From NCBI GenBank assembly GCA_964016885.1, contig OZ024749.1, forward strand, positions 16,740,001 to 16,804,000: a DNA stretch of 64,000 bases, given 5' to 3'. Source of the stretch: Eledone cirrhosa (lineage: Eukaryota). This document shows, in pieces, positions 13,864-45,122 of the stretch (the stretch's first letter is position 1; every line of letters starts with the position of its first letter). The translations under genes and the position numbers were made by a program. The notes under the pieces are model-generated. The model was not told the DNA's origin, searched no databases, and worked only from the letters and a program-made list of their open reading frames with translations.

Positions 13864-13923
<60 letters not shown>

Positions 13924-13968
13924 TAAACAAATAATGAATAAACAATTCCTTATATTAAACAAAAAAAG

Positions 13969-14123
13969 TTCATTATTTAACGATCGTTTCTAGGGTATAT
14001 ATGTGTTATAATTGGTATGCATATTCAACAGATCTATGTACAAAATTATACAAGATCATACAAATTATCAAGATTAAATATACATACCAAACACATATAT
14101 ACGCCGTCTTCAGAAATAATGAA
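13969..14123 (-). ncRNA. Type I hammerhead with ~115-nt stem II (PLE-B 3' end)
   Basis: ttcattattt CTGAAGA ...long hairpin... GAAA cgatcg TT aaataatgaa. Confidence 0.8.
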
Positions 14124-14953
14124 GTATATTTATTGATAATAACAACAATTCAAAATTTCAGTTCAAAATTGACCAATGAAAACACAAAGGGTTAAAAGCA
14201 GTTCGGTGTGTGTATATACATGTAAAATCCTTACACATATTTTACAAAAATGTATGTATAACTTGTATACGCATACTAAAAAGATGGATGCAAACACAAA
14301 ATTTCAAGGTTAAAATCTCTGTAAGCTTAAAATGCGCTGATAAGATGCGCATTGATACTTATGGAGTCAAGCATATAAATATATTTTTTCATACTCACAC
14401 ATATCAGTACAATCACACATACACGCGCGTATATGCATAAATATACACATAACCACGAACATACAAACACACACACACCCCCACTCACATTTATATATGT
14501 GGATATAAAATCATAAGCACATGGATATTAAATCACTCACATAAAACACTGGCACACACATTTCAAGATCAAGATACAGAAATTAGGTGGGAGGGGGGGG
14601 GGGAGGGGTCAGTATTCAATTGTCTGAGCAGACTGCCTAATATAAATGTATCTATAAATTAAGAAAAATAAAATAAAAATAAAAAAATAAAACAATAAAA
14701 TATAATAAATATAATATAATATACATACACATACAGATATATACACATACATACATGTACGCGCACATAGAAATATTTACGCATACACACATACACACAT
14801 ACATATACAGTCATACACACACATACACTTACACGAACATACACATACACATATATAAAGATATATATATACACACACACACACACGCAACACATACACA
14901 CATACACATATATATAGAAAATAAATAATAAAGATATATATCCATATATATAT

Positions 14954-15000
<47 letters not shown>

Positions 15001-15079
15001 CATACACATACATCTAAATATACATACACATACATACACACATACATGTACATACATGTACATACATATACGCACATCG

Positions 15080-15132
<53 letters not shown>

Positions 15133-15433
15133 TAGACATATAGATACATACACACACAACTTACATACACACATATATATATATATAGATGTACATTCAT
15201 ACATAGAATTAGATATATAATCATACATACATATGCACCTACTTATACTCATATATATAAATACATACGCTTCCATATATGCGTATATATAAAAAACACT
15301 ACAACCTCACCTAACTCAGACATACAAATAAAAATAATAATAAAAAGGCATATGTATATACATACACACACGCATTAATAGAGATATATATATATACACA
15401 CATACATACACATATATATATATACATATATAT

Positions 15434-15476
<43 letters not shown>

Positions 15477-15593
15477 TACACTCATACATATATATATATA
15501 TATATATATAAACATATATATCCACACACTCATACCAACATAAATACACATACAAACACCCACATATATATATATATATATATATATACACAC

Positions 15594-15638
<45 letters not shown>

Positions 15639-15925
15639 TAAAAAACAGACATGCACATATATATATATATATATTTTTTTACACTTATATATACACATAT
15701 TATATACACATACACAACCTCACTTATACACATATACACATAAGTTATATTATAATAATAAAGAATAATATACAATATATATATACATATACATATATAT
15801 ATATATATATATACATACATACATACACATACATACATACACATAAACATATACATACATAAATACACACATACGAATAAAGACATATATTCACACATAG
15901 ACACCTATATATATATATATATATC

Positions 15926-15977
<52 letters not shown>

Positions 15978-17106
15978 GACACATATACACACTCACATAT
16001 ATATATGTGTATGTGTGTGTGCGCACATACACATATATACACACACACATACAAGCACACACAAACACATACATATGCATACGTGCACACACACACATAT
16101 ATCACATAGATACGAAGATAAACATATAAATAGAGAGACATACATATATATACAACACACATACACATACATACATACACACGCATATACATATACATAT
16201 ATATATATACATATATATATTCCTATATATACAAGCATACACATACATACACATATATACACATACATACACATATACATACAACACATTCACATACACA
16301 TACATATATAATGCATATATATACATATATATACATACATATGTACACTCATATATACACACGCAATCTTACATTCATATTTGCATGCGCATATATGTAT
16401 TTTTATATTTAGATATAAATACCCAAACCTATATAGACACCTACCTACATATATATTCATACATAGACGCTTACAAATACAGATGATAATAGTATGGGGG
16501 AAAGGGGGGGTTTGGAGAAGGGGATCAAAGTAAATATATGTTTCAAGAAACATATAATATTTTCCGTATCTTTATTCAATTTATGTTCTTACATATTGTC
16601 AGTGCTAGGAAATACGACAAACAAGAACTAAGGCAAAATCTATGCATCTCAAAATAAATAAGTATACCATTAATCATATGTTAACTAAACCAAAGATAGT
16701 CAACATATTGATTTCTAAGGTGTAAATTAGTTAGGTTTATAATATTTGAAGCAGAATTTTGAAGTCAAACAGTAGTAGATTATTAATTACAGTATAACTA
16801 AATTAAAGTTAATAACGTTATGGTATCAATATTAGGAAATGAATTTAGTAATAGGGAAAAGAAACCCAAATAAAAATAAAATAAAGTATTACATCGGTAG
16901 TAGCATATAAATTATATGTTAACTAAATTAAAAATTATATATTTATTTCAATAGTATATGTTAATTAGTATATGTTAATTAAGTATACAATACATAAAGC
17001 AGATATTGTATTTCATAAATAGCATAATATAATTATATGCAAATAGAAATCAAAATTAATACGCATACTAATACATATACATACACATACACATATACAT
17101 ACATAT

Positions 17107-17151
<45 letters not shown>

Positions 17152-17684
17152 TACACATATATACATACATACAGATACACATACACACACACACATACAC
17201 ATACACATATACATATACATATCTTTTTCAAAAAATTGCACAGAATATATTAACTAGGTATATATCCAAAACACATCCCATTCTATGATTACATGACATT
17301 CTGCAATTCGTCTGTATAAGGATACTAATTTTAAGCAAATTAAAATTAAAATTTTTAGGTTGATTAAAACTAAAGCCAAATAATAAATATATTTCCAAAA
17401 TGTATATTAATTAGGTCTATAATACTAAAAATTATTTCTCTGTCATTGGATACACGATATTATTTTGTTATATTTTATCTGTAAAAGAGTTATAATAAAA
17501 GGTTTAAATAAATTAAAATTAATCTATAAATTAAATTACTAAGTATATATTAGTAATATTTAAAGGTTTTTCACAATTTATGATTACATAATATTTTATA
17601 TTCTCATCTGTAATAAAATATTAATTAAATTAAATTTATAGGTTAACTAACATTTAAATTAAATTAATTTCTAGAATAATGTTA

Positions 17685-20126
17685 TTAATTAGGTTTATAA
17701 TATTTAAATGTTTTTTTTAGTTTATGATTACACGATATAATTAATTCCTGTCGTTTATTTAATAAGATATCCTTAGACTTCATTATTTCAAATAGTTCTT
17801 GGGAACATAATCTACATTCCTTTCTATTATTTTGATAAGGGGTGGCTCTTTTGAGCACACTCCAGGTCAAATCATATTTTATATTCTTATTTTTATAACT
17901 ATTGATTTTTTCTGCTAGAGATGTTGTATTAGCCAGTGCGGCATTTTTAAAACTATGCTTGTGGGTATTAAACCTTGTCTTAAAATTGTTAGAGGTAGCT
18001 CCTATATATGAGCAAATAGAATCTTTAGTTTTAACATTACATTTATAGACTATGTTGTTAACAAGACAATTCCCTTTTAATGGGCAGTTTGCTTTGTTTC
18101 TACAGTTACATCCTTTCGTTAATTCTGTATTTGAGGAGATATTATGGTTAATTTGATGTACTGGTGGTATATTTATGGTTTTCTTACATTTATATGCATT
18201 ATATGCACTTATATTTTGTTTTATGTTATTTGTTGTAGAGTATGAGAATTTAACTGTAGACCTATTTAAGATTTGATGGTATTTGTGGTTTGGCGGGAAG
18301 TTTTTCTCAAGGATATAAAAAAATTTTTTAGCAATATTATCCTTAACTTGTAAATTAAAAGGAGCATTATACCAAGTAACTCGTCTATTACGGTTTCTAT
18401 GTTGTTTATTATTTTTATTATTTTTATAGGTTGTATCGTGATTTTTACTAGGAGGATTAATGTTAATGATCTCACCACAACTATTTTTAGTTATATTTGT
18501 AGATTTAGGTGTTTTATCTTTTTTATTAGGAGTTTTATTATTAATATTTATTATAGTTGTATGATGAGTAGTTTTTTGAGGGTTACTATACTTTATATTA
18601 GAAGATTTAGTATTTTGGGGTATATTGTGGGTGGCATTTAGGTGTGTACTTTTCATTTGGTGTTTGTTGGTAATATTATGCTGTATGCTTTCAGTATTTT
18701 TAGTAGAAGGTATATACTCTAATCTATTTTTGTGGCCACTTCTATCTAGAGCTTCATTATAAAAGGTCGCATTTTTATCAAATACATCTTGGTTAGAAGA
18801 AAGGTTAGAAATTCTAAGTGATATATTATATGCAAGGTTTTTAAGGATAGATTTAGGGTGATTAGATTGTGAGTGTATGTAATGTAAGTTTTGGTTAGGT
18901 TTATGGTAAGGTTGGTAGATACCCGTAGCTAAATCTAAAGTTATATCTAGGAAATTTACTACTTTACTTGTTTTTTCAAAAGTAATATTAAGATTATAAT
19001 AGTCTTTAAGGAAAGTTCTAATATGTTTTTTGTTTTTTTCGATTTCTGAAAGGCTAAGGTTGTTAGAAAGAAGAAGACAGTCATCACGATATAAACCACC
19101 TTTGAGGTGGGGAAAAGAGGCATTTATGTTGAAAAGGAGAAAGAGGCCCACAAGATCAGTAATTTGGGCGGAATCGCTTGAACCCATAGTAATATCAAAA
19201 AGATTACTATATGTGTTTCTGGTCCAGTATTCATTCTGAAATTCAATAAGTGTTAGTCTAGCATGTGTAATAATGTTAATGTCATCCGAAGTTAAGCTAG
19301 ATCTATTTTTAGCAAATATCAATGCTTTGTTCAGGAGTATAGGTGATATAGAAGAATAGTAATTATCTATATCAAATTGTAGGAAAGAAGCAGAAGATTT
19401 ACACCTAATATTTTTAAACCAGTTAATTACCTGGGAGGTGTTTTCCCAGAGTGGTAAAATAACGTGTTTTCTTATTTGTGGGATGACTCTATCTAAAATT
19501 TTTTTGCTAATTATTCCAATATCTGATTTGGAGGGACATATAAGTCTAATAGAAGGATTAGAGTTAAAGTTAGATTTGTGATCTTTCAGGTTGAAGTGTG
19601 GTCTTTTCAATGCCAAAGGTTCAGTTCTATCTTCAATGTTTAGTTTTTTTACTATGTTGTGTGTTTTGTTGTTGATGTTGGTGAGTGACACATTATTAGA
19701 TTTTTTATAATTTTTTCTGAGTTCTTTATATATGAACTCATTATAATGTTCAATATCCATATGATACAAGTTACCAGTTTTGTCCGAGTGGACATGGATT
19801 TTTTTAGACTTTTTTAGGTCCAATAGGGTAGAATCAAGGTCCTTTTGAAAGACGGATTTATACTTTTTAAATTTGAGGTGTTTAATTAAATTAAAAAGGT
19901 CTTTCTCGAAGTCTTCAAGTAAAAAGTTGTGTGGTGGATTCTTGTAAGTATTGAAATCATACATATATTTCCGATCTGCTTGTTTAGATTTTCTATCGAA
20001 GTGGTAGGCTCTCCATCTAACCCTTCTGATAAAATTATTAGTTTTCTGAATCATAAGGAGTAAGAAGTCGTCCTTAGAAGGTATTGGTATGTTTTTTAAG
20101 GAGGTTCCTAAATATTGTTTTTCCAT
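17685..20126 (-). CDS. Intact PLE reverse transcriptase / GIY-YIG endonuclease polyprotein (~813 aa from ATG 20126)
   Basis: SDKTGN, FDIDNYY, MGS, YRDD, WYNAPFN, CNCR..CPL.G.C, NIVY..YIGAT; no stops. Confidence 0.93.
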   Translation of the reverse strand: MEKQYLGTSLKNIPIPSKDDFLLLMIQKTNNFIRRVRWRAYHFDRKSKQADRKYMYDFNTYKNPPHNFLLEDFEKDLFNLIKHLKFKKYKSVFQKDLDSTLLDLKKSKKIHVHSDKTGNLYHMDIEHYNEFIYKELRKNYKKSNNVSLTNINNKTHNIVKKLNIEDRTEPLALKRPHFNLKDHKSNFNSNPSIRLICPSKSDIGIISKKILDRVIPQIRKHVILPLWENTSQVINWFKNIRCKSSASFLQFDIDNYYSSISPILLNKALIFAKNRSSLTSDDINIITHARLTLIEFQNEYWTRNTYSNLFDITMGSSDSAQITDLVGLFLLFNINASFPHLKGGLYRDDCLLLSNNLSLSEIEKNKKHIRTFLKDYYNLNITFEKTSKVVNFLDITLDLATGIYQPYHKPNQNLHYIHSQSNHPKSILKNLAYNISLRISNLSSNQDVFDKNATFYNEALDRSGHKNRLEYIPSTKNTESIQHNITNKHQMKSTHLNATHNIPQNTKSSNIKYSNPQKTTHHTTIININNKTPNKKDKTPKSTNITKNSCGEIININPPSKNHDTTYKNNKNNKQHRNRNRRVTWYNAPFNLQVKDNIAKKFFYILEKNFPPNHKYHQILNRSTVKFSYSTTNNIKQNISAYNAYKCKKTINIPPVHQINHNISSNTELTKGCNCRNKANCPLKGNCLVNNIVYKCNVKTKDSICSYIGATSNNFKTRFNTHKHSFKNAALANTTSLAEKINSYKNKNIKYDLTWSVLKRATPYQNNRKECRLCSQELFEIMKSKDILLNKRQELIISCNHKLKKTFKYYKPN

Positions 20127-20469
20127 TGTGATATGGATGATGGACAATTGAAAGAGCTCAACTAAATGTATATGGGTTTACAAAATCATACATATATATA
20201 TGTTTATACATAAATATAAAATTAATACACACATACAGTACAAAAATACGAATATTTCCGTGAAAATAGGAGCAAAATTATGTAGATAAATCTACCAAGA
20301 GTTTACGGTAGTGTCCAATCCGTATGAAGAACTCAATGTATTCCGGATATCATGGAAAGAAGAGATGTAATGAAAAACCACTTTCGGTGAAAGATAAACG
20401 GTATACAGAGTCAAGATAAAATATTAAACAAATAATGAATAAACAATTCCTTATATTAAACAAAAAAAG

Positions 20470-20624
20470 TTCATTATTTAACGATCGTTTCTAGGGTATA
20501 TATGTGTTATAATTGGTATGCATATTCAACAGATCTATGTACAAAATTATACAAGATTATACAAATTATCAAGATTAAATATACATACCAAACACATATA
20601 TACGCCGTCTTCAGAAATAATGAA
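20470..20624 (-). ncRNA. Type I hammerhead with long stem II (PLE-B upstream pLTR)
   Basis: Copy of 13969-14123. Confidence 0.8.
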
Positions 20625-21450
20625 GTATATTTATTGATAATAACAACAATTCAAAATTTCAGTTCAAAATTGACCAATGAAAACACAAAGGGTTAAAAGC
20701 AGTTCGGTGTGTGTATATACATGTAAAATCCTTACACATATTTTACAAAAATGTATGTATAACTTGTATACGCATACTAAAAAGATGGATGCAAACACAA
20801 AATTTCAAGGTTAAAATCTCTGTAAGCTTAAAATGCGCTGATAAGATGCGCATTGATACTTATGGAGTCAAGCATATAAATATATTTTTTCATACTCACA
20901 CATATCAGTACAATCACACATACACGCGCGTATATGCATAAATATACACATAACCACGAACATACAAACACACACACACCCCCACTCACATTTATATATG
21001 TGGATATAAAATCATAAGCACATGGATATTAAATCACTCACATAAAACACTGGCACACACATTTCAAGATCAAGATACAGAAATTAGGTGGGAGGGGGGG
21101 GGGGGTCAGTATTCAATTGTCTGAGCAGACTGCCTAATATAAATGTATCTATAAATTAAGAAAAATAAAATAAAAATAAAAAAATAAAACAATAAAATAT
21201 AATAAATATAATATAATATACATACACATACAGATATATACACATACATACATGTACGCGCACATAGAAATATTTACGCATACACACATACACACATACA
21301 TATACAGTCATACACACACATACACTTACACGAACATACACATACACATATATAAAGATATATATATACACACATACACACACACAACACATACACACAT
21401 ACACATATATATAAAAAATAAATAATAAAGATATATATCCATATATATAT

Positions 21451-21493
<43 letters not shown>

Positions 21494-21568
21494 CATACAC
21501 ATACATCTAAATATACATACACATACACACATACATGTACATACATGTACATACATATACGCACATCG

Positions 21569-21615
<47 letters not shown>

Positions 21616-21916
21616 TAGACATATAGATACATACACACACAACTTACATACACACATATATATATATATAGATGTACATTCATACATAGAATTAGATATA
21701 TAATCATACATACATATGCACCTACTTATACTCATATATATAAATACATACGCTTCCATATATGCGTATATATAAAAAACACTACAACCTCACCTAACTC
21801 AGACATACAAATAAAAATAATAATAAAAAGGCATATGTATATACATACACACACGCATTAATAGAGATATATATATATACACACATACATACACATATAT
21901 ATATATACATATATAT

Positions 21917-21963
<47 letters not shown>

Positions 21964-22080
21964 TACACTCATACATATATATATATATATATATATAAAC
22001 ATATATATCCACACACTCATACCAACATAAATACACATACAAACACCCACATATATATATATATATATATATATACACAC

Positions 22081-22125
<45 letters not shown>

Positions 22126-22414
22126 TAAAAAACAGACATGCACATATATATATATATATTTTTTTTTACACTTATATATACACATATTATATACACATAC
22201 ACAACCTCACTTATACACATATACACATAAGTTATATTATAATAATAAAGAATAATATACAATATATATATACATATACATATATATATATATATATATA
22301 TACATACATACATACACATACATACATACACATAAACATATACATACATAAATACACACATACGAATAAAGACATATATTCACACATAGACACCTATATA
22401 TATATATATATATC

Positions 22415-22466
<52 letters not shown>

Positions 22467-22628
22467 GACACATATACACACTCACATATATATATATGTG
22501 TATGTGTGTGTGCGCACATACACATATATACACACACACATACAAGCACACATGTATGTGTATATAATATGTGTATATATAAGTGTAAAAAAATATATAT
22601 ATATATATATGTGCATGTCTGTTTTTTA

Positions 22629-22673
<45 letters not shown>

Positions 22674-22790
22674 GTGTGTATATATATATATATATATATA
22701 TATGTGGGTGTTTGTATGTGTATTTATGTTGGTATGAGTGTGTGGATATATATGTTTATATATATATATATATATATATGTATGAGTGTA

Positions 22791-22833
<43 letters not shown>

Positions 22834-23134
22834 ATATATATGTATATATATATATGTGTATGTATGTGTGTATATATATATATCTCTATTAATGCGTGTG
22901 TGTATGTATATACATATGCCTTTTTATTATTATTTTTATTTGTATGTCTGAGTTAGGTGAGGTTGTAGTGTTTTTTATATATACGCATATATGGAAGCGT
23001 ATGTATTTATATATATGAGTATAAGTAGGTGCATATGTATGTATGATTATATATCTAATTCTATGTATGAATGTACATCTATATATATATATATGTGTGT
23101 ATGTAAGTTGTGTGTGTATGTATCTATATGTCTA

Positions 23135-23181
<47 letters not shown>

Positions 23182-23260
23182 CGATGTGCGTATATGTATG
23201 TACATGTATGTACATGTATGTGTGTATGTATGTGTATGTATATTTAGATGTATGTGTATG

Positions 23261-23303
<43 letters not shown>

Positions 23304-24130
23304 ATATATATATGGATATATATCTTTATTATTTATTTTTTATATATATGTGTATGTGTGTATGTGTTGCGTGTGTGTGTGTGTGTATATATATATCTTT
23401 ATATATGTGTATGTGTATGTTCGTGTAAGTGTATGTGTGTGTATGACTGTATATGTATGTGTGTATGTGTGTATGCGTAAATATTTCTATGTGCGCGTAC
23501 ATGTATGTATGTGTATATATCTGTATGTGTATGTATATTATATTATATTTATTATATTTTATTGTTTTATTTTTTTATTTTTATTTTATTTTTCTTAATT
23601 TATAGATACATTTATATTAGGCAGTCTGCTCAGACAATTGAATACTGACCCCTCCCCCCCCTCCCACCTAATTTCTGTATCTTGATCTTGAAATGTGTGT
23701 GCCAGTGTTTTATGTGAGTGATTTAATATCCATGTGCTTATGATTTTATATCCACATATATAAATGTGAGTGGGGGTGTGTGTGTGTTTGTATGTTCGTG
23801 GTTATGTGTATATTTATGCATATACGCGCGTGTATGTGTGATTGTACTGATATGTGTGAGTATGAAAAAATATATTTATATGCTTGACTCCATAAGTATC
23901 AATGCGCATCTTATCAGCGCATTTTAAGCTTACAGAGATTTTAACCTTGAAATTTTGTGTTTGCATCCATCTTTTTAGTATGCGTATACAAGTTATACAT
24001 ACATTTTTGTAAAATATGTGTAAGGATTTTACATGTATATACACACACCGAACTGCTTTTAACCCTTTGTGTTTTCATTGGTCAATTTTGAACTGAAATT
24101 TTGAATTGTTGTTATTATCAATAAATATAC

Positions 24131-24285
24131 TTCATTATTTCTGAAGACGGCGTATATATGTGTTTGGTATGTATATTTAATCTTGATAATTTGTATAATC
24201 TTGTATAATTTTGTACATAGATCTGTTGAATATGCATACCAATTATAACACATATATACCCTAGAAACGATCGTTAAATAATGAA
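24131..24285 (+). ncRNA. Type I hammerhead with long stem II (PLE-B inverted copy)
   Basis: 10-bp stem I, CTGAAGA at 24141-24147, GAAA at 24264-24267, palindromic AACGATCGTT. Confidence 0.8.
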
Positions 24286-24470
24286 CTTTTTTTGTTTAAT
24301 ATAAGGAATTGTTTATTCATTATTTGTTTAATATTTTATCTTGACTCTGTATACCGTTTATCTTTCACCGAAAGTGGTTTTTCATTACATCTCTTCTTTC
24401 CATGATATCCGGAATACATTGAGTTCTTCATACGGATTGGACACTACCGTAAACTCTTGGTAGATTTATC

Positions 24471-24564
<94 letters not shown>

Positions 24565-40419: not shown

Positions 40420-41210
40420 ACTATGACCCATGTCAGGTTTAAAACCAGATTTTACTCACATGTCGCTTCTTTTAAGCACTCCGATAAACGAACATCAACG
40501 GCCCTCGCAAGTAAGGTGTGGGATCTCAAGGATAGTAACATCCCGTACTCTATTGATTGGTCTATATTAGACCATTCGAGGGAGTACCAAAGGGGCACAA
40601 AGAATTGTTCTTTGTGTACCACAGAAAAGTATAGGATTTTGCTAAACTTGAGAGCCACTTCTGCTTGCCTTAACTCAAAGACTGAGATCTTCAGATGCTG
40701 TCCTCATCTGAAATCGCATCTGATCTGTAACTGGATTGACACTCCTATGATAAATCAACCGCCTTGAACTCCTTCTCTGCTTTTTACTTCTGCTACGGTT
40801 TTTAATTTGCTGATTCTACGTTCTGTACTCTTGTATATTTACTTAATTTTTTCTCCCTTACCTCCCCTTATATTTTACCTCCTCTTATGCCCCCCCCCCA
40901 TATATTCTTTTTGTTTTGCCCTTCACATACCTATGTGTATGTATATTTGTGTGTATATGTATATATGTATGTATATATATATATATATGTATGTATGTGT
41001 GTGTATGTGTATGTGTGTATATATATATGTATATTTGTGTGTGTATATGTATGTATATGTGGATAAACCAGGTTTTTTCATTCTGAAGATTGAAGGAAAC
41101 ATTTTTTGCTTTTAAGAAACCACTGGTGAATGGAATAATTGCCTTATGTTGCTTTATTACTTTACTACTATATATACGTTTATGTAAGGTTCATTTGAAT
41201 TATCTAAGAC
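40420..41210 (+). mobile_element. PLE family E: GIY-YIG C-terminal fragment and 3' UTR with HHR motif (41076-41135, non-canonical GUG site)
   Basis: [27 protein letters not shown]. Confidence 0.8.
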
Positions 41211-41792: not shown

Positions 41793-41827
<35 letters not shown>

Positions 41828-41984
41828 GATTTAATGCTCTGAAATAGCGATATATATGTGAAGACAAACATAGAATATTCGAAAATATTCTGTATGTTTA
41901 TAATAAACATTTTGAAGACCCAATCGCTATAGAATAGAATACGTCACGTATTACAATTTGAGATTCTCGATAAAAGCAAGGGAA

Positions 41985-42027
41985 GTAACCTACGCGTTTC
42001 ATTCTTATTAGAAATCATCAGGATTAC
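41985..42027 (-). ncRNA. Type I hammerhead (312-nt element, inverted unit)
   Basis: Reverse complement of 42107-42149. Confidence 0.85.
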
Positions 42028-42106
42028 ATATCCAATGCTTTTATCGAGAATGACACAGCTAGAGACTTATAGAATACTTAGCTGTGTCATTCTCGATATT
42101 GGATAT

Positions 42107-42149
42107 GTAATCCTGATGATTTCTAATAAGAATGAAACGCGTAGGTTAC
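42107..42149 (+). ncRNA. Type I hammerhead (312-nt element)
   Basis: gtaatc CTGATGA t-ttct-aata-agaa-t GAAA cgcg TA ggttac. Confidence 0.85.
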
Positions 42150-42418
42150 TTCCCTTGCTTTTATCGAGAATCTCAAATTGTAATACGTGACGTATTCTAT
42201 TCTATAGCGATTGGGTCTTCAAAATGTTTATTATAAACATACAGAATATTTTCGAATATTCTATGTTTGTCTTCACATATATATCGCTATTTCAGAGCAT
42301 TAAATCCAAATTCTAATTTCTGCCGGACCGGCTACCGCTCTTTCAAACCAGTTCCTGTACACAGCTAAGTATTCTATAAGTCTCTAGCTGTGTCATTCTC
42401 GATAAAAGCATTGGATAT

Positions 42419-42461
42419 GTAATCCTGATGATTTCTAATAAGAATGAAACGCGTAGGTTAC
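42419..42461 (+). ncRNA. Type I hammerhead (312-nt element, second unit)
   Basis: Identical core; enclosed by a 16-bp stem attctcgataaaagca / tgcttttatcgagaat. Confidence 0.85.
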
Positions 42462-42589
42462 TTCCCTTGCTTTTATCGAGAATCTCAAATTGTAATACGT
42501 GACGTATTCTATTCTATAGCGATTGGGTCTTCAAAATGTTTATTATAAACATACAGAATATTTTCGAATATTCTATGTTTGTCTTCATA

Positions 42590-42620
<31 letters not shown>

Positions 42621-42799: not shown

Positions 42800-45122
42800 A
42801 TGGTATTTTTAATAAAAATTTTATTAAACTCTCATTCTCTACCACCCCTAATATTGGTTCTCATTTAGCTAGCACTAATAATAGGAAAATTAGGGATGGA
42901 TTCTCCTCTCTACATACTACTAGTCTGAACGGATCTGACAATGCTTTACCACCAGAACAGTCCTTATCTAATAGAAATCCTACGTGTAATACATCACCAC
43001 TCGAGCCAACCAATAACACCCGGAAGTGCAATTGTAGAGTGAGTGCTAACTGCCCTTTAAACGGTAACTGCCTTTCTAAGAACATAGTCTACGCTTGCGA
43101 AGTTATAACTAATTCCTCTAATAGAACTTATATAGGATCTACTTCAAACACTTTTAAGACTAGGTTTAACTCTCATATCTCTAACTTCAAACATGTTAGG
43201 TTTAAGAATTCTACTTCTTTAGCGCATTATATCTGGGATCTTAAGGGAGCTTATATACCATATAGCCTTAATTGGCGTTTAGTAGCACGCTCTAACCACC
43301 TTTCTACACATACTAAGTTTTGAAATCTCTGTATCCTTGAGACACACTCTATAATTTTCTTTAGCGTATCCTTACTTAATAGAAAGTCTGAGATATTCTC
43401 TTCTTGCCCCCACGCCATTTCTAATTCTTACTTTTATTATAAACCCAAATGTTCTAGTAGTACAAATTGTACCCATTAGCAGATATATTCCATTACTTAT
43501 TTTTAGTTTAGGTTCTTTTGTTTGCCAACATTATTGTTATCATCATTATTACCATTGGTTTTTGATGACTCTTCATTCTAGCTCTCATAGTCATTTGGCT
43601 ACTGTACCATATCTATGTTTTCACTATTACACCTTGTTAATATATATAAGATTACATACTTTACGCCATTTACTTTATTTTATTATTATCTTTATTTTTA
43701 TTTTTATTATTAATTTTATTTTTAATTTTATTTTTAATTTTATTCAGATTCATCTTTAGATAACCCCCCCCCCCCATGCGCACATAAACTTATTGTCAAC
43801 CCCTCCAGATTGACTATGATTATATTTAACTTATAATCTTTTACGCTCCGTTCTATTATTTATTATAGTATATCGACTATATTTTATGCCCCTTTGCACC
43901 CTCCATATATTTCTTCAATTCTGTCCCCATTAGCCTACCTTAATTCTACTTAAGTCAGTTTTTTAGATATCGTTATGTATATGTTAGTAAACAATTTCAT
44001 TCCTTTTTGTAAACATTTGTAACGAAACATTAAAGTTTATAAACTTTAATGACTTAAACTACAGCTAATATTATACTACCTTATTGGATAGTTTTGATAT
44101 TTTTAATATTAATTTATCAAATAGGGTTTTGAGTCAATTAAAGTTATTGTTTTCCTTAGTTTTTACCTAACTACTTAACTGCATGTGAGACCTAAATGTG
44201 TATATATTTGTTTTTGTTTTGTAATTTCCGGTTGATTATATTTATTTATTTTATTCTATATTTTATATTCTATTTACTATTCACTGTCTGGCTTTACTTA
44301 CACATCCACATATGTCTGTCTACTAACCTTGTAATTATAAGTATTTATATATTATTTTATGTCAATTTATAATATATTATATTATATTGTATTGTAATAT
44401 TGATCCTTATTACTTACTGTTCATTATATGTAACATTATGATATTTAAACTTTATATATCATGTAAGATGTCTGTATTTTTGTAATATTGTAATATTGAT
44501 CCTTATTACTTACTGTTCATTATATGTAACATTATGATATTTAGACTTTACATATCATGTAAGATGTCTGTATATTTTTTTCTGTACCATCATAATTTTT
44601 TCTGTACCATCATAGTGTTTTTTGAGTATTGTATAATTTATTTTTCCTCATTTACTCTGTAACCCAGTATGAATCGATTTGTATATATTGTTTATTGTAA
44701 ATGTTAGTACATTGTTAACATATTATCATTATATTATTATTGTGACATCTACCATCATAGTGTTTTTTGAGTATTATATAATTTATTTTTCCTCATTTAC
44801 TCTGTAACCCAGTATGAATCGATTTGTATATATTGTTTATTGTAAATGTTAGTACATTGTTAACATATTATCATTATATTATTATTGACATCTATATTGT
44901 TTGTGTAAATTAACCGTGGGATTATCTATTATATTATATTGAATTATATAATTTTATTGTTTATTATTTATTATATGTGTCTCTTGTAATTATATCAAAT
45001 TATTGCCTCATGTATATTGGGTAGATGTATTGGTATTATTTTCACTCTTATCATGCTTATTTTTATATTCAAACTTCTAATAAGGCTTAATTTGTGTAGT
45101 TGAACATAGATGTGCGTATTGT

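What the first reader, a model, noticed from the sequence alone, without database searches (positions are those of the whole stretch)
41823..42587. 312-nt viroid-like/retrozyme element: tandem hammerheads on a highly base-paired non-coding monomer
Seen: three identical type I HHRs. Two are head-to-tail with GUA sites at 42143 and 42455, exactly 312 nt apart, and one is inverted. The monomer has no ORF and is full of hairpins: a 16-bp extension of stem I, acacagcta..tagctgtgt, aatacgt-g-acgtatt, atgtttat-t-ataaacat, agaatatt-ttcg-aatattct, atagcgat..atcgctat and gccgg-a-ccggc. Stem III is the palindrome ACGCGU, suited to dimeric cleavage. The inversion point lies in the tagctgtgt hairpin and (TA)n flanks both ends. 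Known: metazoan non-LTR retrozymes are tandem monomers of a few hundred nt with type I HHRs that yield circular RNAs, and tandem-plus-inverted structure is a PLE integration signature. Inference: a non-autonomous circRNA element copied by a PLE RT, possibly an undescribed cephalopod family.
Basis: partly seen in the sequence, partly recalled or inferred. Interest (0 to 1): 0.9.

Follow-up and report, generated by a model that had tools for sequence, protein, structure and literature searches.

The report
Hammerhead retrozyme with two-armed Penelope insertions
This is one copy of a young, very abundant 312-base non-coding repeat that carries a predicted self-cutting ribozyme and sits in TA microsatellites as back-to-back tandem arrays, and the pattern of those arrays suggests that a Penelope-like jumping gene likely copies a single small RNA, probably a circle, from both cut ends of the target DNA, a step long proposed for animal retrozymes and now testable.

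Summary
Observation confirmed: three identical type I hammerheads, a 312-nt period, a strongly folded ORF-less monomer (z about -5) and (TA)n flanks. It is one insertion of a young family with 5,194 exact ribozyme-core copies genome-wide. Of 53 insertions mapped, 44 are head-to-head pairs of tandem arms (up to 22 units). Arms end at two fixed sites 36 nt apart, one of each in 38 of 39 classifiable insertions: the Penelope 'tail' signature. Inner ends are uniform around the monomer, so the hairpin at this copy's inversion point is incidental. Both arms share one insertion-specific haplotype (30 of 34; permuted mean 7), cross the cleavage site without indels and do not mirror each other's sporadic variants, which points to repeated copying of one monomer, likely a circle. 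A 319-nt sister family keeps the ends and ribozyme fold through compensatory changes. Cleavage, circularity, host species and the partner element remain untested or unidentified. Verdict: new non-LTR retrozyme family whose insertions give genomic evidence for a proposed mechanism. The scan noted Penelope-type tandem non-coding arrays before in another genome (unchecked).

The parts
41823..42587 (.). Whole insertion: two head-to-head arms of the 312-nt unit in a (TA)n tract
41823..42087 (-). Inverted arm, monomer nt 216-312 then 1-168; its outer end is site B (with the 36-nt tail)
42079..42587 (+). Direct arm, monomer nt 242-312 (6 nt missing), 1-312, 1-132; its outer end is site A (no tail)
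42079..42087 (.). 9-nt microhomology at which the two arms are joined (self-complementary hairpin nt 216-224/242-250)
42144..42455 (+). The one complete cut-to-cut monomer (312 nt), predicted unit-length RNA
42098..42163 (+). Type I hammerhead motif 1 (predicted cut after 42143); 5' strand of stem I extension shortened by 6 nt
42395..42483 (+). Type I hammerhead motif 2 with full 16-bp stem I extension (predicted cut after 42455); stem II 4 bp closed by U-U, stem III ACGCGU palindrome
41963..42051 (-). Inverted hammerhead motif with full extension (A17 at 41991)
42222..42338 (+). Central domain (monomer nt 79-195) holding sites A and B; best conserved part against the sister family (69-82% identity); inferred RT/endonuclease recognition region
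42276..42311 (+). 36-nt 'tail' between site A (nt 132) and site B (nt 168)
   Evidence: compared with PMC8557442 and PMC11167929
41796..41824 (.). Left (TA)n target tract
42587..42612 (.). Right (TA)n target tract

Best explanation
This is a young non-coding, hammerhead-bearing repeat family (a non-LTR retrozyme) that lies in (TA)n tracts as head-to-head tandem arrays and is likely copied by a Penelope-like element, whose enzyme would cut both target strands and copy one unit-length RNA, probably a circle, round and round from both DNA ends. Shown by sequence: dispersal, youth, two fixed outer ends 36 nt apart used one each per insertion, random inner ends, read-through of the ribozyme cut site, and one shared haplotype per insertion. 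Inferred: arrays are transcribed as multimers; the hammerheads cleave (likely as dimers through the ACGCGU palindrome); monomers are ligated to circles; a dimeric PLE RT/GIY-YIG protein binds the central domain, primes one target end at nt ~132 and the other at nt ~168, both polymerases circle the template with strand displacement, and the two cDNA ends are joined by microhomology or blunt repair.
For: Family size and youth: 5,194 exact 32-nt core matches, control 0; 98-100% identity among best hits; sporadic variation 0.23%. PLE footprint: 44 of 53 insertions two-armed; A+B in 38 of 39 classifiable after removing one duplicate (39 of 40, p 3.7e-11 before removal); 9 of 10 in the position-ordered, score-unbiased set; TA on at least one side in 43 of 44; a 12-15-bp target duplication where the flank is not microsatellite (L126). 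The 30-40-nt tail at one end and two adjacent RT start sites on both strands are published PLE features (PMC8557442; PMC11167929). An autonomous PLE in this window shows the same one-of-each rule in 6 of 6 readable insertions. One-monomer template: arms identical at marker sites in 30 of 34, permuted mean 7.0, maximum 15 of 10,000; a private 2-nt deletion in all 20 full units of both arms of one insertion; 0 of 68 sporadic variants mirrored in the other arm. No 5' end: 37 of 39 A arms and 38 of 39 B arms are longer than a cleaved linear monomer allows; 97 inner ends uniform (p 0.72), 3 near the cut site against 3.1 expected; 316 of 316 detected cut-site junctions free of indels. Ribozyme under selection: sister family keeps the stem I extension with 8 two-sided changes in 16 pairs and stem II with 4 in 5, and carries the U3-A8 core covariation, a known active natural variant, as is U10.1-U11.1 (PMC3088659).
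Against: Self-cleavage and a covalent circle were not measured. Eight of nine predicted Xenopus retrozyme dimers did not cleave in vitro (bioRxiv 2026.07.22.740005), and the PAc ribozyme needs protein and is dispensable for insertion in vitro. Stem III is 2 bp and stem II opens with a mismatch; the full core is not the minimum-energy fold. The statistics cannot separate a ligated circle from a nicked monomer held shut by stem I. Some arrays are mixed (L041, L042, L061), 22 of 312 neighbouring units share a sporadic variant and one array repeats a two-variant pattern 7 units apart, so local duplication, template switching or assembly error contributes. End classes were set after seeing the first 38 loci, and marker sites were defined from the same data. 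No autonomous partner with a matching end was found; the active PLE in the window has a ~137-nt tail and unrelated end sequence.
Confidence: 0.7

Rival explanations
1. Same PLE-driven double priming, but the template is a cleaved linear monomer whose two ends are held together by the 22-bp stem I plus extension, and the RT jumps the nick precisely on each round (repeat addition without covalent closure).
For: Explains the one-monomer haplotype equally well. The predicted fold pairs the two ends of the linear monomer. PLE RTs are telomerase relatives; precise repeat synthesis from a non-coding RNA by the bacterial DRT2 RT is recalled (only its listing was seen).
Against: No excess of inner ends at the cut site (3 against 3.1 expected) and no indel in 316 junctions, where jumping would be expected to stop or add bases at times (inference). 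Tested animal retrozymes accumulate mostly as circles (PMC7229834).
Confidence: 0.13
2. The template is an uncleaved multimeric read-through transcript of an existing array, as proposed for autonomous PLE tandems; the ribozyme is slow or silent.
For: PAc uses unprocessed RNA in vitro; many predicted retrozyme ribozymes are inactive in vitro; weak stems II and III here; mixed arrays exist.
Against: Both RTs would copy the same units, so sporadic variants should mirror between arms: 0 of 68. Sporadic variants are not shared between insertions beyond chance (20 of 162 against 16 expected). Private variants fixed through whole arrays (188 of 198 and 92 of 92 covered units) need a one-unit bottleneck. 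Classical internal twin priming on a linear RNA (recalled from L1) predicts B arms ending near nt 133-142: 2 of 39.
Confidence: 0.09
3. A solitary PLE pseudo-LTR inserts as a short piece and becomes a tandem array afterwards by unequal crossing over or slippage (satellite-birth model of Li et al. 2026); the ORF-bearing parent exists elsewhere.
For: Model stated in bioRxiv 2026.07.22.740005; 22 of 312 adjacent units share a sporadic variant; one apparent block duplication; the genome was not searched exhaustively for a parent.
Against: Arms shorter than two units already cross the cut site and wrap round the unit (this window: 216-312-168), which needs a repeating template at insertion. Both arms are multi-unit, up to 22 units at 0.1-0.7% divergence. 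None of 53 insertions continues into an ORF or shares an upstream sequence. The colinear 319-nt sister family is also ORF-less in the loci read.
Confidence: 0.06
4. Assembly or library fold-back artefact.
For: One insertion (L049) has B at both ends and mirror-image flanks, as a fold-back would give.
Against: The other insertions have two different ends, unequal arms and distinct flanks; a target duplication is visible at L126; contigs of independent runs show the unit-to-unit joint and TA loose ends at site A.
Confidence: 0.02

Closest known systems
Metazoan non-LTR retrozymes (coral, mussel, axolotl; Cervera and de la Pena 2020, PMC7229834)
   Same: Tandem non-coding units of a few hundred nt, low G+C, type I hammerhead per unit, thousands of copies, highly paired monomer with the ribozyme free to fold; rolling-circle copying by a PLE or LINE RT was hypothesised there.
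   Different: No sequence match known; U10.1-U11.1 stem II. That paper's main text has no occurrence of 'inverted', 'target site' or 'microsatellite': insertion ends, head-to-head arms, the tail and one-monomer haplotypes were not described. Their RNAs were shown experimentally; this one is not.
Vertebrate non-LTR retrozymes as non-autonomous PLE derivatives (Li, Clavereau, Pollet 2026, bioRxiv 10.64898/2026.07.22.740005)
   Same: Same conclusion that PLEs are the partner; similar unit size and array range.
   Different: Their evidence is co-occurrence and pLTR homology in Xenopus, with arrays explained by local amplification; here the evidence is the insertion footprint, arrays appear to be born long, and no homologous pLTR was found.
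EN+ Penelope-like elements (PAc/Poseidon, Frangieh 2024 PMC11167929; Neptune/Naiad/Chlamys and non-autonomous MRC1, Craig 2021 PMC8557442)
   Same: Two internal RT start sites downstream of a hammerhead bounding a 30-40-nt tail, both target strands cut and extended, AT-rich/(TA)n targets, inverted 5'-truncated copy, tandem insertions; MRC1 is non-autonomous with multicopy head-to-tail insertions.
   Different: No ORF; 312-nt unit; canonical-type hammerhead with stem I internal loop rather than the minimal PLE form; arrays to 22 units with one haplotype.
Hammerhead viroids and viroid-like circular RNAs (Avsunviroidae-type; recalled)
   Same: Size, high self-pairing, hammerhead.
   Different: Genome-encoded, with a ribozyme in one polarity only; no evidence of RNA-to-RNA replication.

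Membership tests
Non-LTR retrozyme | Type I hammerhead in every tandem unit | tested here: met
   Core, stems I-III and GUA site present; 316 junctions read in arrays; covariation in sister family. Stem II closes with U-U, a known natural variant.
Non-LTR retrozyme | Tandem units of about 150-450 nt, low G+C, non-coding | tested here: met
   308-312-nt units, 34% G+C, longest stop-free stretch 56 codons.
Non-LTR retrozyme | Dispersed, high copy, no LTR/PBS/PPT structure | tested here: met
   5,194 core copies; ends are TA junctions without terminal direct repeats other than the unit. PBS/PPT not searched separately.
Non-LTR retrozyme | Highly self-paired monomer | tested here: met
   z -5.2 circular, -5.0 linear.
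Non-LTR retrozyme | Self-cleavage and accumulation of unit-length circular RNA | not testable with these tools
   Needs in vitro cleavage and RNA blots; only indirect genomic evidence.
PLE-mobilised non-autonomous element | Two fixed 3' ends 30-40 nt apart (tail at one end) | tested here: met
   Modes at nt 132 (or 141 where CATATATAT merges with the TA target) and 167-169; one of each in 38 of 39.
PLE-mobilised non-autonomous element | Inverted 5'-truncated copy and tandem organisation; AT-rich or microsatellite target | tested here: met
   44 of 53 two-armed; TA on at least one side in 43 of 44.
PLE-mobilised non-autonomous element | 3' end homologous to an autonomous PLE of the same genome | tested here: inconclusive
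   No such match in 530 kb of masked sequence in hand or in one active PLE family; the 3-Gb genome holds many PLE families not examined.
pLTR of an autonomous PLE | Contiguous with an RT/GIY-YIG ORF | tested here: not met
   0 of 53 mapped insertions continue into an ORF-bearing body; ends are the other arm, TA or unrelated flanks. Only 53 of roughly several hundred to a thousand insertions were read.
Viroid / viroid-like replicon | Ribozymes in both polarities or RNA-RNA replication, no DNA copy | tested here: not met
   No antisense hammerhead; thousands of chromosomal copies; no match in viral or metagenome contigs.

The most novel reading that the evidence does not exclude
These arrays are the genomic fossils of double rolling-circle target-primed reverse transcription: a dimeric Penelope enzyme primes both cut target ends at two fixed sites on one ribozyme-made RNA circle and runs round it up to 22 times. 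If so, the long-unexplained tandem/inverted/tail architecture of Penelope-like elements in general would follow from one rule (one RNA, two primers, one at each start site), and animal retrozyme 'satellites' would be born full-length in a single event rather than by later amplification.
Probability: 0.55. Interest if true: 0.8.

Novelty: new member of a known kind. Interest (0 to 1): 0.6.

Why it matters
Animal retrozyme circles are abundant, but how they re-enter the genome and which enzyme does it has rested on hypothesis and co-occurrence. This family is young enough that its insertions record the reaction: fixed start sites, one of each per event, one template per event and no template end. 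It gives exact coordinates for an in vitro test in the existing PLE assay format and would show a covalently closed RNA acting as a retrotransposition template in animals. The U-U stem II also means descriptor pipelines that reject a 10.1-11.1 mispair (as in PMC3088659) and Rfam thresholds miss such families.

Tried and rejected
Of four runs laid, X4 holds one 342-nt contig that spans the unit and closes on itself; its kind is not recorded and a tandem DNA array gives the same contig, so it is no evidence for a circle. X1 and X5 hold many variant contigs (family present under at least two organism labels); X5's commonest change at nt 102 is mostly uncompensated. Partner search: the active 830-aa PLE in the window (150 of 150 scored hits 99-100% identical; RT/GIY-YIG look-alikes; no Pfam hit) has a 28-nt, 82% match to nt 112-139 in its 3' UTR, rejected because its own ends lie elsewhere and low-complexity hits score alike; a pattern for other ACGCGU hammerheads gave 0; a search with the 310-nt unit returned 0 candidates because of the tool's common-word filter. 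Fold-back second-strand synthesis from one fixed end rejected: A arm longer in 21 of 39 and no mirroring. Pol III promoter: no A or B box consensus, and T4 runs on the plus strand; no promoter identified. Rfam miRNA hits are palindrome or microsatellite artefacts below gathering. No match in metagenome or viral contigs. Hairpins nt 39-53, 61/147 and 216-250 are not supported by covariation in the automatic alignment (4 of 6, 5 of 8, 6 of 9 pairs broken); the first two look shifted in register by eye, the third absent. Literature searches for a cephalopod or octopus retrozyme or for a circular template in PLEs found none; supplements of the papers were not read and could list such a family. Scan look-ups by sequence and by genome found nothing.

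Full report
Observation. The window holds three letter-identical 66-nt hammerhead motifs, two on the plus strand with A17 at 42143 and 42455 and one inverted with A17 at 41991. Numbering the monomer from the base after GUA (42144-42455), the ribozyme has a 6-bp stem I, an internal loop, three more pairs and a 16-bp extension; a 4-bp stem II that opens with a U-U mismatch; and a 2-bp stem III made of the palindrome ACGCGU, whose intermolecular duplex is predicted at -9.5 kcal/mol. This matches the canonical metazoan architecture described in PMC4209133 (passages) except for the usually conserved G10.1-C11.1 pair; U10.1-U11.1 is a known natural variant (PMC3088659, passages and section 8). Rfam scores it at 20.6 bits, below the gathering score of 52. 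The monomer is ORF-less and folds better than all 100 shuffles. The insertion is a 265-nt minus arm (nt 216-312, 1-168) and a 509-nt plus arm (nt 242-312 with 6 nt missing, 1-312, 1-132) overlapping by 9 nt, inside (TA)n.

Family. A DNA search gave 263 matches from 39 of 497 candidates scored; an exact 32-nt core pattern gave 2,650 plus 2,544 matches, control 0. Two subfamilies occur, of 312 and 310 nt, about 96% identical. I mapped 53 insertions: the window, 39 from loci picked by best score and 13 from the first 57.6 Mb of contig C1 in order of position. Forty-four are head-to-head pairs of tandem arms; nine are single arms. Median span is 1.5 kb, maximum 7.3 kb with a 22-unit arm. None continues into an ORF-bearing body.

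Penelope footprint. Of 97 outer ends, most fall at nt 132 (26), 141 (10), 168 (21), 167 (10) and 169 (6); 132 and 141 are one site, since nt 133-141 read as TA repeat. Classes A (114-142) and B (157-174) were set after viewing the first loci. After dropping one duplicated insertion (L031 = L046), 38 of 43 two-armed insertions have one A and one B end, 4 are unclassifiable through truncation or gaps, and 1 is B+B; the last has mirror-image flanks and looks like a fold-back. In the position-ordered set the count is 9 of 10. [quoted passage not shown] TA flanks both sides in 33 and at least one side in 43 of 44; one non-microsatellite site shows a 12-15-bp duplication. An active autonomous PLE in this window follows the same one-of-each rule in 6 of 6 insertions whose two ends could be read, of 9 examined.

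One template per insertion. In the 312-nt subfamily the two arms agree at all marker sites in 30 of 34 insertions, against a mean of 7.0 and a maximum of 15 in 10,000 permutations; in the 310-nt subfamily 8 of 8 against 2.5, which alone is not decisive (permuted maximum 8). Unit divergence is 0.47% between arms of one insertion and 1.16% between insertions (0.12% and 0.66% in the other subfamily). Insertion-level variants occur in 188 of 198 and 92 of 92 covered units; one insertion has a private 308-nt unit in all 20 full units of both arms. Markers were defined from the same data. Sporadic variants are not mirrored at the same offset in the other arm (0 of 68) and are not shared between insertions above chance (20 of 162 against about 16), which argues against a multimeric linear template. 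Against purity of the model: some arrays are mixed, 22 of 312 neighbours share a sporadic variant, and one array repeats a variant pair 7 units apart.

No template end. A cleaved linear monomer would give arms of at most about 141 or 172 nt; 37 of 39 A arms and 38 of 39 B arms are longer. The 97 inner ends are uniform over the unit (p 0.72), with 3 near the cut site against 3.1 expected, and B arms stop near site A in only 2 of 39, unlike L1-type twin priming (recalled). All 316 detected cut-site junctions are free of indels within 6 nt on each side (detection needs a near-intact core). Arm joins overlap by 1-16 nt in 22, are blunt in 6 and have 1-13 extra nt in 13 of 43. The hairpin at this copy's join is therefore incidental. 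A ligated circle explains all this most simply; a nicked monomer held shut by stem I cannot be excluded.

Sister family. A colinear 319-nt family (92 matches from 40 of 2,034 candidates) is 69-82% identical over nt 79-195 but only 36-49% over the ribozyme region. It uses the same two ends (A+B in 15 of 20 two-armed loci, the other 5 truncated or rearranged; the query selected for a B end), keeps the stem I extension with 8 two-sided and 1 one-sided change in 16 pairs, stem II with 4 two-sided changes in 5, and has the U3-A8 core covariation. Over ten helices 28 of 50 changed pairs stay standard against 37% by chance (p 0.006), though three helices are not supported in the automatic alignment. 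Sequence conservation at the start sites and structure conservation at the ribozyme fit a protein-binding domain plus a functional ribozyme (inference).

Partner. The 830-aa ORF at 17685-20177 belongs to a very young family with RT and GIY-YIG look-alikes (no Pfam hit; clade label Neptune-like recalled from motifs), but its tail is about 137 nt and its ends are unrelated. A search of 530 kb of masked sequence found only the sister family and a small palindromic element above shuffled controls. The partner is open.

Known and new. Non-LTR retrozymes and the hypothesis that a PLE copies their circles into tandem cDNA are published (PMC7229834, passages and sections 14 and 17); a 2026 preprint ties them to PLE pLTRs, favours later local amplification, and found cleavage in only 1 of 9 dimers tested (parts 1-3 of 5). 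This family is a new member of that kind. What I did not find in print (searches; supplements not read) is a description of retrozyme insertion ends, the one-of-each rule counted per insertion, or haplotype evidence for a one-monomer template. The host was not identified. An earlier scan note on another genome reports ribozyme-free tandem units with Penelope-type ends (unchecked), so the architecture may be general. Verdict: observation confirmed, interpretation supported, interest 0.6.

Noticed in passing
L052:4870-5440 and L154-L178 (G000, many contigs): 319-nt sister retrozyme family, about 92% identical between copies, with a U3-A8 hammerhead core, the same two ends and head-to-head arms; 2,034 candidates.
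   Followed up: yes
L045:4260-4445; L071-L090: About 195-bp palindromic element in (TA)n (1,403 candidates) with a nearly fixed centre, a hammerhead-like motif with the same U-U stem II on both strands, and one short plus one long end about 70 nt apart; a possible fixed-template counterpart of the circular case.
   Followed up: partly
L041, L047, L054, L065, L080: Another tandem/inverted hammerhead family of about 470-520 nt with an internal TA tract, stem II closed by U-U and stem III ACUAGU; the 312-nt element sits next to or inside its copies at several loci.
   Followed up: partly
window 13917-24474 (ORF 17685-20177, minus strand): Intact, very young autonomous Penelope-like element (6.67-kb unit, 830-aa ORF) with a hammerhead bearing a ~100-nt stem II and two ends about 137 nt apart, one of each per insertion.
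   Followed up: partly
window 3637, 41083, 45514, 45963 (+), 46510 (-): Further hammerhead motifs of several PLE families next to GIY-YIG fragments and TA tracts; the studied insertion lies between two such remnants (40420-41210 and 42800-43440).
   Followed up: partly
L129:3099-3370: 272 nt of unrelated, G+C-rich sequence captured between the two arms of an insertion, possibly a template switch to another RNA or a repair patch.
   Followed up: no
L058:900-1463; L068:7050-7750: Abundant TA-targeted element with a hammerhead-like motif whose core reads CAGAAGA instead of CUGANGA in both copies seen.
   Followed up: no
L049: Insertion with site B at both ends and mirror-image flanks, likely a fold-back duplication or assembly artefact.
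   Followed up: partly
monomer nt 228-237 (window 42371-42380): A 10-nt stretch is identical between the 312-nt and 319-nt families inside an otherwise diverged region; role unknown.
   Followed up: no
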